DNA from: an uncultured Prochlorococcus sp.
Lineage (GTDB): Bacteria; Cyanobacteriota; Cyanobacteriia; PCC-6307; Cyanobiaceae
Direction: 5' to 3'
DNA: 64,000 nucleotides
NCBI GenBank assembly: GCA_902527105.1
Contig: CABZNT010000002.1
Span: 96,706-160,705 of the forward strand
Shown here: positions 5,721-39,961 of the stretch, one piece after another
Layout: each line of letters begins with the position of its first letter
Numbering within the stretch: the first letter of the stretch is position 1
Program-made: the position numbers and the translations under genes
The notes under the pieces: model-generated
Database searches by the model: none
The model's input: only the letters and a program-made list of their open reading frames with translations
Told to the model about the DNA's origin: nothing

Positions 5721-5867
5721 TGATTTAGTTACTTAATGTAAATATATTAACGAGATATTGTTCCTTATGTGTGCCATAAAATTATTTTTTTGGAAATATT
5801 TTGAAATAAAGAAATCTTTTTGGAGATATCTTCACTAAGAACATTTTTTATAGAGTTATCTTAGTAT

Positions 5868-6377
5868 TTGATTCTTAGATTAAAATCTATTATGAAACAA
5901 TTTCCTGATATTAATGAAATAAAACTTTTAGAAAAAAATTCTCAAAAAAACGGTAGCGGAATTTTATATGAGGAATTGTTAGGAATATGGAAGTTTAAGT
6001 ATGTATGGGGAAAAGAGTCAGATGAAATCAAAAATATACCCAGTTCTATTCTCCAAGTATTGTCGGCAAGACTCGAATTAAAAAGTAAAAATAAAGAGGA
6101 TCAAATAAATTATGAAATAAAAAATTCAATTAATTTCGGATTATTAAATATTACTTTTATAGGCAGTGCAGAATTAAAAGGGGTTAGACCTTTATTGGCT
6201 TTTTATTTTGAAGAATTGAAAATTAGTATTAGTAGTTTTCCAGTATTTAATAAGGAATTAAAAAAACCAGAAGAAAAAAAAATGCCTTTTTTCTCTCTTT
6301 TAGGAATTAGCACTAAAGATAATTGGTTATGTGCTCGAGGAAGGGGCGGAGGGCTTGCAATATGGGTTAAGTCTTAA
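5868..6377 (+). CDS. hypothetical protein, PAP/fibrillin-like beta fold
   Basis: LLGIWKF...ARGRGGGLAIW; true start may be the ATG at 5892. Confidence 0.65.
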   Translation: MILRLKSIMKQFPDINEIKLLEKNSQKNGSGILYEELLGIWKFKYVWGKESDEIKNIPSSILQVLSARLELKSKNKEDQINYEIKNSINFGLLNITFIGSAELKGVRPLLAFYFEELKISISSFPVFNKELKKPEEKKMPFFSLLGISTKDNWLCARGRGGGLAIWVKS

Positions 6378-11305: not shown

Positions 11306-11470
11306 TCAGAAAATAAATGAACCTTTAGGGTATAGCCTGGAAATTTTTTTCTGCTGTAAATATTTCTTTTTTTTGATGTCGTTTTCATATCTTCTCAACA
11401 TCATTAGATAGTTAGCAACTCCAAAAATTATTAAAAAAATAATAAATCTTATTCCTGCCTCTAAGTTCAT
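11306..11470 (-). CDS. 54-aa membrane micro-protein
   Basis: MNLEAGIRFIIFLIIFGVANYLMMLRRYEND...YPKGSFIF*. Confidence 0.5.
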   Translation of the reverse strand: MNLEAGIRFIIFLIIFGVANYLMMLRRYENDIKKKKYLQQKKISRLYPKGSFIF

Positions 11471-11532
11471 ATGAGTATTAAACTTTATTCTAATCTGACA
11501 ATTACTAATTAAAAATCAATCGGTATTTATAT

Positions 11533-12414
11533 CTAATTAAAACGTCTAGTAAAAATTTTTTTTGATTTTACTGTATAAAAAATACATAACAAAAATAATA
11601 TTAAAATTGCACTAAAGCTTCCGATTGGGTTTGGAATATTTTGTGTAAAAGGCCCTGCTAAAAAAGAATTTGTATTTTCTTTGAATTCTATTAATCCATT
11701 ATTTAATAAAAACCAAATACCCACAAGTCCTCCATGAATTCCTATGCAATTCCATAAAGAGCCTTTATTTCTAATTTTTACTAATGATAGAAATATCCCA
11801 AGTAAAATAAATCCCAAACGTAATCCTACTATGTTCCAAAAGATCTCATTTGATAAATTATGAACGAAGCTAAAAATTATAGCTTGTAAAGCTATTGATA
11901 TTTTTGTACCATATTCAAATTTTAATTCTTCTAGTAACCAGCCTCTAAAAATTATTTCCTCTGCGAATCCAACACCTAATCCCAGTAAAATAGAATTTAA
12001 CAATATTGTTGGCGAGAATTCACCTATCCAAGAAATATAATTTTTTTGTAATAGTGGTACCAGAATTAGAATTATTAAAACTAAAGCAAATAAAATACCT
12101 TGAGAAAAATTGAAAAAGTTTTTCAAGAATTTGTATTTTGTTATCCCAAGAATTATCCAAGCACTTGATTTATTTCTTTTGATATAAAACCAATATGGGA
12201 GTAAAAAGATAAAAAGTAAAAAAGTAATAATAGTACCAATTAAGGATAAATTATCTTTTTCAAAATTAAACAATAAAAGTGGCTGAGATAAAGCCCAGCC
12301 AATTCCATAAAGAATTGGAATAAAAAATAAAGTGGATAAAAATCTTGGTCTTAAAAGAAAAAAACTTCTAATTAGTATCATTACATTTTTCATTTTAGTT
12401 TGAATATTAGTCAA
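11533..12414 (-). CDS. CPBP (Abi/CAAX) intramembrane protease
   Basis: AEEIIFRG, FSFVH, IGIHG motifs. Confidence 0.9.
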   Translation of the reverse strand: MTNIQTKMKNVMILIRSFFLLRPRFLSTLFFIPILYGIGWALSQPLLLFNFEKDNLSLIGTIITFLLFIFLLPYWFYIKRNKSSAWIILGITKYKFLKNFFNFSQGILFALVLIILILVPLLQKNYISWIGEFSPTILLNSILLGLGVGFAEEIIFRGWLLEELKFEYGTKISIALQAIIFSFVHNLSNEIFWNIVGLRLGFILLGIFLSLVKIRNKGSLWNCIGIHGGLVGIWFLLNNGLIEFKENTNSFLAGPFTQNIPNPIGSFSAILILFLLCIFYTVKSKKIFTRRFN

Positions 12415-36207: not shown

Positions 36208-36651
36208 ATGGAAACAAAAAACTCAATATCTATAAAGCGCTCAATAGCTATTAAAGCTGTAGTTACACCAACTTGGAAGGAAGATGCTGAAAAAGAATTA
36301 AGTAAAGCAATTTCAAACATTGATCAGCAATTATCGCAACTGGAGCAAGAGGGGCAGCAAATAGTAAATAATATTAGATCCCAATCGGTTAATCCCCTAG
36401 ATCCAAGAGTTCAAGAACAGGTTAGTCAGGTGCAACAACAAGTCGCAGCAAAACGAAATGAAATTGAAGAACAGAAAAGAAATCTTCTTCAACAACAGAG
36501 TCAAGTTCGCGAATTAAAAATGGACGAAATTGTTGATCAAGGGCAAGTGGATAGTTTCTGTGATGTCACTGTGGGAGACAATCTTATTGAAAAAATGCAA
36601 GTATCGATTACGGTTAAGGATGGAGTTATTCAATCTATAGATAATAATTAA
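36208..36651 (+). CDS. YlqD family protein
   Basis: KAVVTPTWKE coiled coil, V.VGDNL. Confidence 0.88.
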   Translation: METKNSISIKRSIAIKAVVTPTWKEDAEKELSKAISNIDQQLSQLEQEGQQIVNNIRSQSVNPLDPRVQEQVSQVQQQVAAKRNEIEEQKRNLLQQQSQVRELKMDEIVDQGQVDSFCDVTVGDNLIEKMQVSITVKDGVIQSIDNN

Positions 36652-36733
36652 AGAGAAGATTTAGTATTTTTGATAAATATAAGTAAATCTTAATTTCGAA
36701 AAGTTTTAAATTCTAATCGATCTAAATTATTAC

Positions 36734-36881
36734 TTTCTTAAGTTTTAAGAGTTCCCACTGCGAACATGATTTCGTATAATTAAAACAAGAGTTTAAAGGG
36801 TTCTTAACCATAAAAAATTTAGGAAGTTTGGTAGAAATCCCTTGAAACTTATGCAATAACAATTTTCTTATGTCTCACGAA
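36734..36881 (+). repeat. left copy of the pdhC promoter/5' UTR plus first 4 codons (attL-like)
   Basis: GTTCCCACTG.GAACATGATTTCGTATAAT ... ATGTCTCACGAA also present at 38457-38605. Confidence 0.85.
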
Positions 36882-37076
36882 GATTCAATGCTTTAGTCAT
36901 ACCAAGCGTTTTACCCGTTAGACACCTGTTAGACACAAAATTTCATTATTATTAAGTTTAGTTCTAGACTACGATCCTTGAATATTACTTAGACAGAGAA
37001 TTAGACGTATTTTTATAAAAAAAATATCGAATTTTATGTATAATTTTATAATTTCAAAATAAAAAATTCGTCTAAA

Positions 37077-38429
37077 TTGAACAAATCAATTAAAGATCAA
37101 AATAAAGAAGTAAAAAAACGTAAAAAACTTTTGTTTCAAGCAAGCGGTAAATTTAGTCGTAGGGACTTTCAAGGAGCAATAAAAGATTATTCCAAATATA
37201 TTGAATTATTTTCTAAACCATATTTGGGTTTTGTTTATAGAAGTTTATGTAAAATGAAGGTTGAGGATTATAAAGGGGCGAAAATTGATATTTTAGAAGC
37301 AATAAAATTAGATCCTGCTAATGGGAAAGCATATGAAATATGGTTAGAACTACTGCTTTTAAAAGAAGGCAATATTAAGGAGATTCTTGAAATTTATAAA
37401 AAATGTCTTGAACTATCCGAGTTTAATTCTTACCTAGGATTTTATAAAGATAATACTCCTTTGTTAGATAAGGAACTTAATATTTGGACTAATGCAATCA
37501 ATGATATTCAAAAATATACACTACAAATAAGTATCAACGAGGAGATTGGTAATTCCCATTTTCAAAGAGGAATTTCAAAACAGAAATTATTCAATTTCAA
37601 AAATGTCATACCATTTTTGTCTATTTCTTTAATTAAACAAGTAATTGAAGATTTCACAAAGACTATTGAATTGAATTTTAGAAAAGCGGATTCCTATTTT
37701 CAAAGAGGGATTTCAAAATCTTTATTAGCACAAGAAGAAGAGGCAATTAAAGATATCACAATAGCGATTGAATTAAATCCCAAAAATGATGAGTATTTTG
37801 CTAGAAGAGGAGAATGTCAATACTTATCAAAAAAGTACAAAGAGGCAATTAAAGATATCACAATAGCGATTGAATTAAATCCCAAAAATGATGAGTATTT
37901 TGCTATGAGAGGAGAATTAAAATCTTCCTTGAAAAAATACAAAGAGGCGATAGAAGATTACTCAAAAGCAATTGAATTAAACCCCAAATGTAAAACATGC
38001 TTTCTTTCTAGAGGTGCATGTAAACAGTTTTCAAAGAAATACAAAGAGGCGATAGAAGATTTTACTATATACATTGATTCGCAGGATTGCGAAATAAATT
38101 TATTGGAAGCATTTGGAAGAATTGAATTTAATAAAGGAGGGGGTATGGTTGGAGCATATCTTGGTAGAGGTATTTGCTACAGGGAACTTAAAGATTATTT
38201 TAAAGCGATAGATGATTTTACAAATGCTATTGAATTACATCCCGAAGGATTCATTTATTCAAGTAGAGGAACTGCAAAGTTCCTAATAAAAGATTATGAA
38301 GGGGCACTTGAAGATTTTTTAACTTATAAAAACTATGAAATATCGGATGAAGAGAAAAAAGTAACTAATAAACGAATTTTATTATGCAAAGAAAAATTAT
38401 TAGAAATAGACGATATTTTAAAAATCTAA
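37077..38429 (+). CDS. tetratricopeptide repeat protein (element cargo)
   Basis: repeated YF.RG....Y.EAI.D..AIELNP 34-aa units. Confidence 0.9.
   Translation: MNKSIKDQNKEVKKRKKLLFQASGKFSRRDFQGAIKDYSKYIELFSKPYLGFVYRSLCKMKVEDYKGAKIDILEAIKLDPANGKAYEIWLELLLLKEGNIKEILEIYKKCLELSEFNSYLGFYKDNTPLLDKELNIWTNAINDIQKYTLQISINEEIGNSHFQRGISKQKLFNFKNVIPFLSISLIKQVIEDFTKTIELNFRKADSYFQRGISKSLLAQEEEAIKDITIAIELNPKNDEYFARRGECQYLSKKYKEAIKDITIAIELNPKNDEYFAMRGELKSSLKKYKEAIEDYSKAIELNPKCKTCFLSRGACKQFSKKYKEAIEDFTIYIDSQDCEINLLEAFGRIEFNKGGGMVGAYLGRGICYRELKDYFKAIDDFTNAIELHPEGFIYSSRGTAKFLIKDYEGALEDFLTYKNYEISDEEKKVTNKRILLCKEKLLEIDDILKI
37738..37905 (+). repeat. exact 66-bp repeat at 102-bp period within the TPR gene
   Basis: AAGAGGCAATTAAAGATATC...GAGTATTTTGCTA at 37738 and 37840. 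Confidence 0.9.
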
Positions 38430-38456
38430 TGATTTTTTTATTTGTGTAATTATAAA

Positions 38457-38605
38457 TTTCTTAACTTAAGTTGGTTCCCACTGTGAACATGATTTCGTAT
38501 AATAAGTATATAAGTTTTAAGGGTGCCTAACCTAATAAATTCTAGACAGTTTGGTAGACAATCCCTGAGAACCCTTGCAATAACTACAGCACTATGTCTC
38601 ACGAA
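38457..38605 (+). repeat. right, diverged copy of the pdhC promoter/5' UTR (attR-like)
   Basis: see left copy; TATAAT at 38498-38503. Confidence 0.85.
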
Positions 38606-39961
38606 ATATTCATGCCTGCCTTGAGTTCTACTATGACGGAGGGCAAGATTGTGGAATGGTTGAAAAATCCAGGAGATAAAGTTGAAAGAGGTGAATCTGT
38701 CTTGGTTGTTGAATCTGACAAGGCAGATATGGATGTTGAATCTTTTCAAGATGGGTATCTTGCAGCTGTTTTAATGCCTGCTGGCAGCACTGCACCAGTA
38801 GGAGAGACTATCGGTCTTATTGTAGAAAATGAGGATGAGATAGCTTCTGTTCAAGAACAAAATAAAGGAAAACAACCCGAAGTTTCTAGTTCGGATCAAC
38901 TTGAATTGGTAAGCAATAAAACGGAAGAAAAACCTGTGATTCAAAGTGAAATTGTTGAAAAACAAGAAAAAGAAGTTGTATTAATGAGTGAAAAGGCAGC
39001 CTCATCTTTTAATAGTGATCAAACAAATGCTGCTACGAGTAATGTTTCTTCGAGGGTGATTGCATCTCCAAGAGCTAAAAAACTTGCCTCTCAAATGGGC
39101 GTTGATTTAGCAAAGGTTCATGGATCCGGACCTCACGGAAGGATTCAAGCCGATGATATTTTAAAAGCTAATGGTCAACCAGTCTCTATACCATGGATAG
39201 GTGAAGGTGGTTCTCCTGCAAGTATACTTGGTGCAAATTTGGGAGTTGAAAGTAAACCAGAAACTTCAGGAAATAGTTTTGGTAATCCCGGAGAAACAGT
39301 TCAATTTAATACTCTTCAGAAAGCGGTAAATAAAAATATGGAATCTAGTTTAGATGTGCCATGTTTTAGGGTGGGTTATTCCATTAACACAGATAAATTA
39401 GATAATTTCTATAAAAAAGTAAAACAGAACGGAGTTACTATGACTGCTTTACTAGTAAAGGCAGTTGCAAAGACACTTAAGAAACATCCTCAAGTTAACT
39501 CAAGTTTTTCAGAGAATGGAATTTCTTATCCAGAAAATATAAATATTGCTGTTGCTGTTGCGATGGAAGATGGTGGACTAATAACTCCAGTTTTAAAAGA
39601 ACCATGCAATACTGATTTATTTGAATTGTCTAGGGAATGGAAAGATCTCGTAAAAAGATCAAGATCAAAACAATTAGAACCTGATGAATACTCAACGGGA
39701 ACCTTCACTTTATCTAACCTTGGGATGTTTGGAGTTGATAGATTTGACGCAATTCTTCCTCCAGGTACCGGCGCTATTTTAGCCATAGCATCATCGAAAC
39801 CAACCGTTGTTGCTAATAGTGATGGTTCAATATCTGTTAAAAAAATAATGCAAGTAAATCTAACAGCTGATCATAGAGTGATCTATGGAGCTGATGGAGC
39901 TTCATTCTTAAAAGACTTGGCTTCCCTAATTGAAGATGAGCCAGAGACTCTTGTCTCCTAA
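38594..39961 (+). CDS. pdhC: pyruvate dehydrogenase E2, dihydrolipoamide acetyltransferase
   Basis: lipoyl VESDKADMDVE, ASPRAKKLA, DHRVIYG. Confidence 0.97.
   Translation: MSHEIFMPALSSTMTEGKIVEWLKNPGDKVERGESVLVVESDKADMDVESFQDGYLAAVLMPAGSTAPVGETIGLIVENEDEIASVQEQNKGKQPEVSSSDQLELVSNKTEEKPVIQSEIVEKQEKEVVLMSEKAASSFNSDQTNAATSNVSSRVIASPRAKKLASQMGVDLAKVHGSGPHGRIQADDILKANGQPVSIPWIGEGGSPASILGANLGVESKPETSGNSFGNPGETVQFNTLQKAVNKNMESSLDVPCFRVGYSINTDKLDNFYKKVKQNGVTMTALLVKAVAKTLKKHPQVNSSFSENGISYPENINIAVAVAMEDGGLITPVLKEPCNTDLFELSREWKDLVKRSRSKQLEPDEYSTGTFTLSNLGMFGVDRFDAILPPGTGAILAIASSKPTVVANSDGSISVKKIMQVNLTADHRVIYGADGASFLKDLASLIEDEPETLVS

What the first reader, a model, noticed from the sequence alone, without database searches (positions are those of the whole stretch)
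36870..38605. Integrase-less mini element integrated at the pdhC start codon, with a reconstructable attP
Seen: ATGTCTCACGAA, the first 4 codons of pdhC, occurs at 36870 and 38594. Joining the element's right end to its left end gives GAACCCTTGCAATAACTACAGCACT-ATGTCT-CACGA-AGATTC-AATGCTTTAGTCATACCAAGCGTTT. The two 25-bp flanks form an imperfect inverted repeat (18/25) around a short asymmetric CACGA spacer. Paired direct repeats lie further out on both element sides: GTTAGACAC at 36917 and 36928, TTAGAC at 36989 and 37001, and TAGACA at 38543 and 38555. The equivalent positions of the left promoter copy lack them. Established: a symmetric core with a short spacer plus arm-type direct repeats is the architecture of lambda-type tyrosine-integrase attP sites, and most described Prochlorococcus island elements target tRNA genes. 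Inference: this is a non-autonomous 1724-bp element, or a deletion remnant, of an element family that targets an essential protein-coding gene and is mobilised in trans.
Basis: partly seen in the sequence, partly recalled or inferred. Interest (0 to 1): 0.85.

Follow-up and report, generated by a model that had tools for sequence, protein, structure and literature searches.

The report
Integrase-less mobile cassette at pdhC start
A 1.7-kb insert carrying one TPR gene sits exactly at the start of the essential pdhC gene of a Prochlorococcus cell; it is a stripped-down, integrase-less relative of a so far undescribed family of ocean mobile elements that insert at this spot and bring their own replacement promoter for pdhC.

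Summary

- **The repeat:** window 36725-36881 and 38448-38605 are direct copies, about 75% identical. Both end in ATGTCTCACGAA, and they bracket a TPR gene.
- **Empty sites:** most of 285 same-genus genomes have one promoter copy, 99% identical to the left copy.
- **Filled sites:** nine genomes are filled at exactly this point. Six hold 1.1-1.8-kb integrase-less elements with differing cargo. Three hold 6.8-9.4-kb elements with a tyrosine integrase next to the left junction.
- **Free form:** nineteen ocean metagenome contigs carry the predicted joined ends (attP) followed by that integrase, with no host genes. One closes as a circle.
- **Crossover:** two independent lines place it in TCACGAA, within pdhC codons 2-4.
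- **Arm repeats:** TAGAC words sit at fixed positions (-57, -45, +44, +55, +115, +127) across 26 attP sites.
- **Lasting scars:** some genomes that lost the element keep its promoter as a chimeric pdhC leader.

Mobilisation of the mini elements in trans is inferred, not shown. No mini-circle junction was seen, and no cognate integrase was found in this 88%-complete genome. The mechanism is of a known kind: lambda-type integration, SXT-like 5'-end targeting and CIME-like hitchhikers. The scan has noted similar integrase-less cassettes on other DNA, at a SAR11 tRNA-Leu gene.

The parts
36208..36651 (+). ylqD, the upstream host flank
   Evidence: Pfam YlqD E 2.1e-36; 97-99% identical in relatives.
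36725..36869 (+). Resident (native) pdhC promoter and 5' leader. It now reads into the element instead of pdhC.
   Evidence: 99% identical to the single copy at empty sites. TTCCCA-17-TATAAT at 36752-36780.
36870..36881 (+). attL core, ATGTCTCACGAA. The proposed 7-bp overlap TCACGAA is 36875-36881.
   Evidence: The identity shared by attL and attR shrinks to TCACGAA in G157 and to TCACGAAATA in G266. The dyad centre lies here.
36870..36896 (+). Truncated pdhC leader ORF, MSHEDSML*. It is closed by the conserved TAG of the TAGT core motif.
   Evidence: Translation. Seven of the eight mini elements close the leader ORF within 5-8 codons; G136 does so after 11.
36882..37012 (+). Left (P') arm of the element. 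TAGT lies at 36894-36897. TAGAC words lie at 36919, 36930, 36990 and 37002 (+44, +55, +115, +127 from the overlap), with one extra at 36965.
   Evidence: The positions are the same in all 7 genomic elements and in the 19 metagenomic attP sites. The arm is 81-82% identical to the arms of integrase-bearing contigs L055, L056 and L068. Homology ends where their integrase gene starts.
37077..38429 (+). Cargo: a 450-aa TPR-repeat protein in the same orientation as pdhC, downstream of the resident pdhC promoter.
   Evidence: Pfam TPR_1 E 3.7e-38. The closest homologues (75%, 57% and 54% aa identity) lie in the same kind of mini element; two of the three are shown at the pdhC site. No PADLOC match.
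38448..38593 (+). Right (P) arm: a surrogate pdhC promoter and leader carried by the element. TTCCCA-17-TATAAT lies at 38475-38503, TAGAC at 38543 and 38555, TGCAA..ACTA at 38576-38586.
   Evidence: 73% identical to the native copy and no closer to any clade's native leader. Homologous to the right ends of all family members.
38594..38605 (+). attR core, ATGTCTCACGAA. The overlap is 38599-38605. This is the functional start of pdhC.
   Evidence: G266 and G157 carry ATGAGT here, a synonymous Ser codon brought by the element.
38594..39961 (+). pdhC, the E2 subunit of pyruvate dehydrogenase and the target gene. It is intact.
   Evidence: Pfam Biotin_lipoyl, E3_binding and 2-oxoacid_dh.

Best explanation
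Window 36882-38593, plus one copy of the core, is a 1724-bp integrase-less member of a family of site-specific integrative elements of high-light Prochlorococcus. The family's attachment site is the first codons of pdhC.

**Full-length members (6-9 kb).**
- They encode a lambda-type tyrosine integrase directly inside the left end.
- The integrase recombines a circular attP with the chromosomal site within TCACGAA, which spans pdhC codons 2-4.
- Integration cuts pdhC off from its promoter. The element therefore carries, as its right arm, a diverged copy of the pdhC promoter, leader and first codons, which restores expression.
- The resident promoter then reads into the element.
- Paired TAGAC words at fixed distances on both arms are the likely arm-type integrase sites.

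**The window's element.** It keeps both complete arms and has a single TPR gene in place of the integrase and everything else.

**Shown:** the family, the target, the empty sites, the attP forms, the conserved site layout and the promoter copy.

**Inferred:** that TAGAC words bind the integrase, that the surrogate promoter drives pdhC, and that mini elements are excised and integrated in trans by an integrase from a co-resident full-length relative.
For: **Empty and filled sites**
- Empty sites with one promoter copy, 99% identical to the left copy, are the rule among 285 genus genomes.
- Nine filled sites share identical junctions. Six are minis: G000, G017, G098, G129, G136 and G257. Three carry an integrase: G266, G157 and G235.
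- Further TPR minis occur in an NCBI assembly and in two Tara contigs, one of them partial.

**The integrase**
- PHROG_1 integrase, E 2.6e-23 over the full length.
- Residues 71-195 of the model match integrase core-binding domains (3nrw Z 12.7, lambda Int 1z1b Z 10.8). Residues 1-65 weakly match the HPI integrase arm-binding domain (Z 5.7).
- All three close homologues in the genus sit at pdhC.

**Free form**
- An attP-specific pattern gave 0 hits in 53 integrated loci and 19 metagenome contigs.
- 18 of the 19 have the integrase 130-200 nt downstream of the junction. None has ylqD or pdhC. L054 has a 77-bp terminal overlap, as circular assemblies do.

**Crossover and arms**
- The overlap is located by the minimal identity between attL and attR and, independently, by the dyad centre.
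- TAGAC positions are fixed in all 26 attP sites, and the word co-varies within an element (TTGGACAC in L067 and L072).
- A sister integrase lineage (L076) has TTGGAAC words with spacing 12/88/12/58/12, against 12/89/11/60/12 here.

**Mini elements**
- They share only the two arms with full-length elements, and their arms derive from different sublineages.
- In the TPR lineage the arms are 92-93% conserved while the cargo is 69%.
Against: - No circular junction of a mini element was found. Every attP contig that could be judged carries the integrase.
- No cognate integrase was found in the G000 assembly, which is 88% complete. Only two unrelated weak PF00589 matches were seen.
- Some minis have single-base lesions in one arm word: L073 at +115, G257 at +55, G136 at +127. 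This is compatible with decay.
- Sixteen genomes have a TAGACA pair in a single, normally spaced leader. The right-arm pair is therefore not exclusive to elements.
- The model's catalytic domain has low confidence, and no solved structure matches by sequence.
- Each full-length element that reaches far enough also carries a small serine recombinase, whose role is unknown.
Confidence: 0.88

Rival explanations
1. The mini element is a dead remnant. It was left by internal deletion or replacement of a full-length element. It is now inherited vertically, spreads only by homologous recombination through the conserved ylqD and pdhC flanks, and is lost by recombination between its two promoter copies. 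It never moves by site-specific recombination.
For: - No mini-circle junction was seen.
- No integrase was found in G000.
- Three minis have single-base lesions in arm words.
- Homologous recombination between the two promoter copies demonstrably happens. G152 and G187 have chimeric leaders that switch from native to element type at the shared TTATTACTTTCTTAA block.
- The flanks are 98-99% identical between genomes, which is ample for homologous exchange.
Against: - Minis outnumber full-length elements 6 to 3 in genomes. They come from at least 2-3 arm sublineages.
- They persist as diverged lineages with the same cargo: G098 and G129 are 82% identical, and the TPR proteins are 55-75% identical.
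- Most arm words stay in place although the arms are 13-30% diverged from the full-length arms compared.
- The genomes closest to G000 at this locus (99%) have clean empty sites.
Confidence: 0.35
2. The TAGAC word pairs are operators for a transcription regulator, from the host or the element. They would control pdhC and the genes entered from the left end. They are not integrase arm sites.
For: - The words lie between the promoter and the start codon on the right arm, and upstream of the integrase start on the left arm.
- A host clade has the pair in its own pdhC leader.
- Full-length elements encode a divergent ribbon-helix-helix or repressor-like protein next to the integrase.
Against: - The words keep the same geometry but change in a sister integrase lineage, and they vary together within single elements. 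This points to an element-encoded reader.
- They are retained in minis that lack the regulator gene.
- The integrase has an N-terminal beta-sheet domain that weakly resembles an arm-binding domain.
Confidence: 0.15
3. The small serine recombinase carried by full-length elements, not the tyrosine integrase, catalyses insertion at pdhC.
For: A resolvase-family gene is present in each full-length element that reaches far enough: Pfam Resolvase E 1e-18 to 1e-26 in G266 and G157, plus tblastn matches.
Against: - Its position varies. It is near the right end in G266 and G157, and just after the integrase in L054 and L061.
- The tyrosine integrase always starts at a fixed distance from the overlap.
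- A 7-bp overlap with a dyad and arm repeats is the layout of tyrosine integrases (established knowledge).
- Proteins of 180-220 aa are of resolvase/invertase size, not large serine integrases.
Confidence: 0.04
4. Plain tandem duplication of the pdhC promoter with a gene inserted between the copies, unrelated to any mobile element.
For: Two promoter copies in direct orientation.
Against: - The copies are only 75% identical, while the left one is 99% identical to other genomes.
- The same ends bracket unrelated cargo and integrase-bearing elements.
- attP forms exist.
Confidence: 0.01

Closest known systems
[quoted passage not shown]
   Same: A tyrosine integrase inserts the element into the 5' end of a conserved protein-coding gene (PMC2791158). 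From my own knowledge of Hochhut and Waldor 1999, the element supplies a new promoter and 5' coding end for that gene.
   Different: SXT/R391 elements are about 100-kb conjugative elements of Gammaproteobacteria. Here the elements are 6-9 kb with no conjugation genes, in Prochlorococcus, with a different target gene. Any relationship between the integrases was not tested.
CIMEs (cis-mobilizable elements) of Firmicutes
   Same: [quoted passage not shown] This is exactly the state of the window's element.
   Different: CIMEs were defined around conjugative elements and move by accretion with an incoming ICE. No conjugation machinery is involved here, and no tandem mini-plus-full array was seen.
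Tycheposons of Prochlorococcus (bioRxiv 10.1101/2020.12.28.424599)
   Same: Same host, similar size, an inward-facing tyrosine integrase at one end, cargo genes, and circular or free forms in ocean samples.
   Different: Tycheposons are described at seven tRNA/tmRNA genes. pdhC is not mentioned as a target in the text or in the held supplements. No primase/helicase hallmark was recognised here. The integrase matches other Prochlorococcus integrase-like ORFs only over about 55 C-terminal residues.
Phage lambda attP/Int
   Same: A short overlap flanked by inverted core sites, direct arm-type repeats on both arms, and an integrase with N-terminal, core-binding and catalytic parts.
   Different: There are no phage genes. 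The P arm doubles as a promoter and leader for the target gene. Binding and the need for host factors were not tested.

Membership tests
Site-specific integrative element with a lambda-type tyrosine integrase | A tyrosine recombinase gene within the element | tested here: not met
   The window element holds only a TPR gene. No cognate integrase was found in the 88%-complete genome. The feature is met in relatives G266, G157, G235 and in 18 metagenome contigs. The window element is therefore filed as an integrase-less derivative, not an autonomous member.
Site-specific integrative element with a lambda-type tyrosine integrase | An identical short core at both junctions, and empty sites that carry one copy | tested here: met
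   The 12-nt core lies at 36870 and 38594. Empty sites are found in most relatives. The minimal shared identity in the family is TCACGAA.
Site-specific integrative element with a lambda-type tyrosine integrase | Joined ends (attP) exist as free or circular DNA | tested here: met
   This holds for the family: 19 metagenome contigs, one with a 77-bp terminal overlap. It was not seen for any mini element.
Site-specific integrative element with a lambda-type tyrosine integrase | Inverted core-type sites around the overlap, and arm-type direct repeats | tested here: met
   The sequence pattern only was tested. The dyad is centred on TCACGAA. ACTA at -16..-13 mirrors TAGT at +13..+16, and TAGAC words sit at six fixed positions in 26 attP sites. 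Protein binding cannot be tested with these tools.
Site-specific integrative element with a lambda-type tyrosine integrase | The catalytic residues R-K-H-R-H/W-Y in the integrase | tested here: inconclusive
   Invariant R249, K281, R390, H393 and Y422 in alignment A4 fit the pattern by eye, with Y387 where the first His is usual. The catalytic domain of the model has pLDDT below 50, and there is no PDB sequence hit.
Tycheposons | Integration at a tRNA or tmRNA gene | tested here: not met
   The target is pdhC codons 2-4. The preprint lists seven tRNA/tmRNA targets.
Tycheposons | A lineage-specific tyrosine recombinase and shared replication hallmark genes | tested here: inconclusive
   No tycheposon reference sequences were available. 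Other genus genomes gave only weak matches (E about 1e-6; most 40-45% identical over about 55 C-terminal residues) to other integrase-like ORFs. The second conserved gene matches only phrog_19197, of unknown function, and DruA weakly.
CIME (cis-mobilizable element) | Intact attL and attR without recombination or transfer genes | tested here: met
   Both arms are complete, with all six arm words, and the only gene is the TPR cargo.
CIME (cis-mobilizable element) | Mobilised together with an autonomous element that uses the same site | not testable with these tools
   No tandem mini-plus-full array was found in the loci examined.
Integron gene cassette | An attC site and IntI-type integrase platform | tested here: not met
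   The ends are 145-nt and 160-nt arms homologous to the attP of a lambda-type element, not attC hairpins. There is no array, only one slot at pdhC.

The most novel reading that the evidence does not exclude
The pdhC start is a single-slot gene-exchange site. Rare integrase-bearing elements, seen mostly as free circles, act as helpers. A larger, long-lived population of integrase-less cassettes (TPR, nuclease, and defence-candidate cargo) is shuttled in and out in trans. As a side effect, the family has repeatedly and permanently overwritten the promoter of an essential central-metabolism gene. This may extend to a whole host clade of 16 species representatives and to a complete genome of MED4 size.
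Probability: 0.4. Interest if true: 0.75.

Novelty: new variant of a known kind. Interest (0 to 1): 0.62.

Why it matters
Prochlorococcus is the most abundant phototroph in the ocean. It lacks the usual vehicles of gene exchange, and the mobile elements described for it so far (tycheposons) use tRNA genes.

- **A second route.** This is a small element family aimed at the start of an essential protein-coding gene, which it keeps alive by bringing a spare promoter.
- **Hitchhikers dominate.** Most chromosomal copies are integrase-less cassettes. This offers a testable model of trans-mobilised hitchhikers in a streamlined genome.
- **Lasting marks on the host.** Chimeric and element-derived pdhC leaders show that a mobile element can rewrite the regulation of a core metabolic gene. 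This could affect how pdhC expression data from cultured strains are read.
- **Ready for experiment.** The att site is compact and well defined, and could also serve as a genetic tool for an organism that is hard to engineer.

Tried and rejected
- **Viral contigs:** the attP pattern gave 0 hits in viral contigs.
- **Solved structures by sequence:** nothing useful for one integrase and nothing for the 11-sequence profile.
- **Integrase structure model:** only the first 195 residues are confident. The fold search therefore says nothing about the catalytic domain.
- **Cognate integrase in G000:** not found with one protein or with the profile. The genome is 88% complete, so absence is not shown.
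- **tRNA genes near other integrase-like ORFs:** none found next to the weakly related ORFs of other genomes, but within only about 3-kb loci, so this is uninformative.
- **PADLOC on the TPR cargo:** no match.
- **Origin of the surrogate promoter:** the right arm is 71-74% identical to most HLII-type native leaders compared, less to the other clades, and closer to none. No donor clade was identified.
- **Target of the sister lineage L076:** I guessed a pdhC start reading MAIHD. Two genome-contig scans found nothing, so the target is unknown.
- **Literature:** no paper held links pdhC with an integrase or attB. The published Cell version of the tycheposon paper is not held.
- No reads could be laid on the element to look for excision joints, and read laying was not used.
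- **Divergence argument:** I considered arguing that high element divergence against conserved flanks proves horizontal movement, and downgraded it. ylqD and pdhC are highly conserved across the genus anyway.
Full report
**1. What is in the window**

The gene order is an AMP-binding enzyme gene, ylqD (36208-36651), a TPR gene (37077-38429), pdhC (38594-39961) and queA, all on the + strand.

- The 12-mer ATGTCTCACGAA occurs twice, at 36870 and 38594.
- It ends a longer direct repeat, 36725-36881 versus 38448-38605, about 75% identical.
- Both copies keep a TTCCCA-17-TATAAT promoter-like site.

**2. Empty and filled sites**

I searched 285 same-genus genomes. Nearly all match ylqD plus the left copy at 94-99% identity, up to exactly the last base of the 12-mer, and then continue into pdhC. 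These are empty sites with one promoter. The left copy is therefore the resident one, and the right copy arrived with the insert.

Nine genomes are filled at the same point:

| Genome | Size | Content |
|---|---|---|
| G000 (this window) | 1724 bp | TPR gene |
| G017 | 1513 bp | EEP nuclease plus a 60-aa ORF |
| G098, G129, G257 | 1735-1766 bp | EEP nuclease plus a T5orf172 protein (G098's copy matches PADLOC candidate PDC-S57, E 1e-77) |
| G136 | 1097 bp | T5orf172 protein only |
| G266, G157, G235 | 6.8, 7.6, 9.4 kb | full-length, with integrase |

TPR-carrying minis also occur in an NCBI assembly (L073, between ylqD and pdhC) and in two Tara contigs (L074, with both junctions, and the partial L075).

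**3. The integrase-bearing relatives**

- **Identity.** In the three large elements a 444-458-aa ORF starts about 140-150 nt inside the left junction. The G266 and G157 proteins match PHROG_1 (integrase) at E about 1e-23 over the full length. The family is 59-83% identical internally.
- **Structure.** In a model from 11 sequences only residues 1-195 are confident. Residues 71-195 match integrase core-binding domains (3nrw Z 12.7, rmsd 2.2, 102 aligned; lambda Int 1z1b Z 10.8). Residues 1-65 weakly match the arm-binding domain of HPI integrase (Z 5.7). The catalytic domain rests on the PHROG match and on invariant R249, K281, R390, H393 and Y422.
- **Location.** All three close homologues in the genus sit at pdhC. 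None was found in G000.
- **Family size.** In a library of 1.8 billion representative proteins the family is narrow: 21 clusters at E up to 1e-30.
- **Other genes.** Full-length elements also carry a divergent ribbon-helix-helix-like gene, a gene of unknown function (phrog_19197) and a small serine recombinase.

**4. Free attP forms**

I built a pattern that needs the right-end motif, the core and the left-end motif together.

- It hits none of the 53 integrated loci and nothing in viral contigs.
- It hits 19 ocean metagenome contigs.
- In 18 of them the junction is followed by the integrase. The nineteenth ends too early to tell. None carries ylqD or pdhC.
- L054 has a 77-bp terminal overlap, typical of a circular assembly. 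L062 is a circular permutation of the G266 element.

**5. Site anatomy**

- **Overlap.** G266 and G157 bring ATGAGT instead of ATGTCT (both read Met-Ser). Identity between their attL and attR therefore shrinks to TCACGAAATA and TCACGAA. Independently, dyad symmetry over 26 attP sites peaks only when centred on the middle of TCACGAA (0.50, against 0.19-0.33), with ACTA at -16..-13 mirroring TAGT at +13..+16. The crossover therefore lies in pdhC codons 2-4.
- **Arm words.** TAGAC words sit at -57, -45, +44, +55, +115 and usually +127 in all elements, although the sequence around them is diverged.
- **Co-variation.** The word varies as a set within single elements, for example TTGGACAC throughout L067 and L072. 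A sister integrase lineage (L076) has TTGGAAC words with almost the same spacing. This co-variation is my main reason to read them as sites for an element-encoded protein, most likely the integrase N-terminal domain. Binding itself is inferred.

**6. Promoter logic**

- The right arm is a diverged copy of the pdhC promoter, leader and first codons. The synonymous AGT codon in two elements shows that it is kept to encode the same N-terminus.
- After integration the resident promoter reads an 8-codon leftover ORF (MSHEDSML*, 36870-36896). This ORF is closed by the conserved TAG, and transcription then runs into the element.
- In a circle, the element's promoter copy would read across attP into the integrase gene.
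- These transcription statements are inferences from the layout.

**7. Are the minis alive?**

For:
- They share only the two arms with full-length elements, exactly up to where the integrase gene would start.
- Their arms come from different sublineages.
- Lineages with the same cargo are old. G098 and G129 are 82% identical, and the TPR proteins are 55-75% identical.
- In the TPR lineage the arms are 92-93% identical while the cargo is 69%.

Against:
- No mini-circle junction was seen.
- No helper integrase was found in G000.
- Three minis have a single-base lesion in one arm word.
- Homologous recombination is a real alternative route.

I put trans-mobilisation at roughly even odds.

**8. 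Scars**

- G152 and G187 have a single, normally spaced leader. It is native-type upstream and element-type downstream, switching at the shared TTATTACTTTCTTAA block. An element was deleted there by recombination between its two promoter copies, and pdhC kept the element's promoter.
- G132 has a single element-like leader of another type.
- G015 has an element-type right arm directly before pdhC, 1.5 kb of extra DNA and no left junction. It is a complete 1,657,990-bp genome.
- Sixteen genomes share a single leader that carries the TAGACA pair and ACTA. I could not decide whether this leader is ancestral or element-derived.

**9. Comparison and novelty**

- The mechanism matches lambda-type integration.
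- 5'-end targeting with a surrogate promoter parallels SXT/R391 at prfC (PMC2791158).
- The integrase-less state matches the definition of CIMEs (PMC6323972).
- Tycheposons share the host and general design but are described at tRNA/tmRNA genes. pdhC is not mentioned in the preprint or its held supplements.
- No held paper links pdhC with an integrase.

I rate this a new variant of a known kind. The mechanism is familiar, but the target, the dominance of cargo-only derivatives and the lasting promoter replacement in host lineages are new for this organism.

Noticed in passing
L079 (G152:C8) 11462-11698; L080 reverse strand (G187:C4): Chimeric pdhC leaders. The upstream part is native-type and the downstream part element-type, with the switch at TTATTACTTTCTTAA. 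An element was deleted here by recombination between its two promoter copies, and pdhC kept the element's promoter.
   Followed up: yes
L032 (G015:C1:381300-385000) 887-2382: A complete 1,657,990-bp genome has an element-type right arm (TAGAC pair, G017-like promoter copy) directly upstream of pdhC. It has 1.5 kb of extra DNA with small ORFs and no left junction. It looks like a fixed, decayed element, and sister genomes have a 137-nt spacer.
   Followed up: partly
16 genus genomes, e.g. G269:C1:81747-81809 and G062:C35:351923-351985: A host group whose single, normally spaced pdhC leader itself carries TAGACACTTTGGTAGACAG and ACTA. It also forms the left copy in G235 and G136. Whether it is ancestral or element-derived is undecided.
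   Followed up: partly
L076 (ENA scaffold SANC23-1, 16.9 kb) 5740-6001: A sister integrase lineage (E 1e-129 to the profile) on a scaffold that repeats an 8235-bp unit at 97% identity, so either a concatemer or a circle read twice. It has the same gene order, and TTGGAAC word pairs with the same spacing as the TAGAC pairs here. Its target gene was not identified.
   Followed up: partly
L037:7794-8450, L038:6945-7535, L053:3016-3558, and metagenome contigs: Each full-length element that reaches far enough carries a small serine recombinase (180-226 aa) in addition to the tyrosine integrase, at a variable position. Its role is unknown; multimer resolution or inversion are possibilities.
   Followed up: no
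L035:1597-2214 (G098), also G129, G136 and G257: The cargo of several minis is a T5orf172/GIY-YIG-like protein; G098's copy matches the PADLOC candidate defence family PDC-S57 (E 1e-77). It is often paired with an EEP-family nuclease. This suggests defence-type cargo at this site.
   Followed up: partly
window 37641-38246: The TPR cargo contains 102-bp tandem repeat units, including a near-exact duplicate at 37743-37784 and 37845-37886. Its homologues in sister minis are only 55-75% identical, so it is a fast-evolving repeat protein.
   Followed up: no
window 36894-36899 and the same position in all elements: The conserved YAGTNA motif at +13..+18 is both the mirror of ACTA on the other arm and the in-frame stop (TAG or TGA) that ends the truncated pdhC leader ORF at attL in most elements examined (G017 stops earlier, G136 later). 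It may serve both roles.
   Followed up: partly
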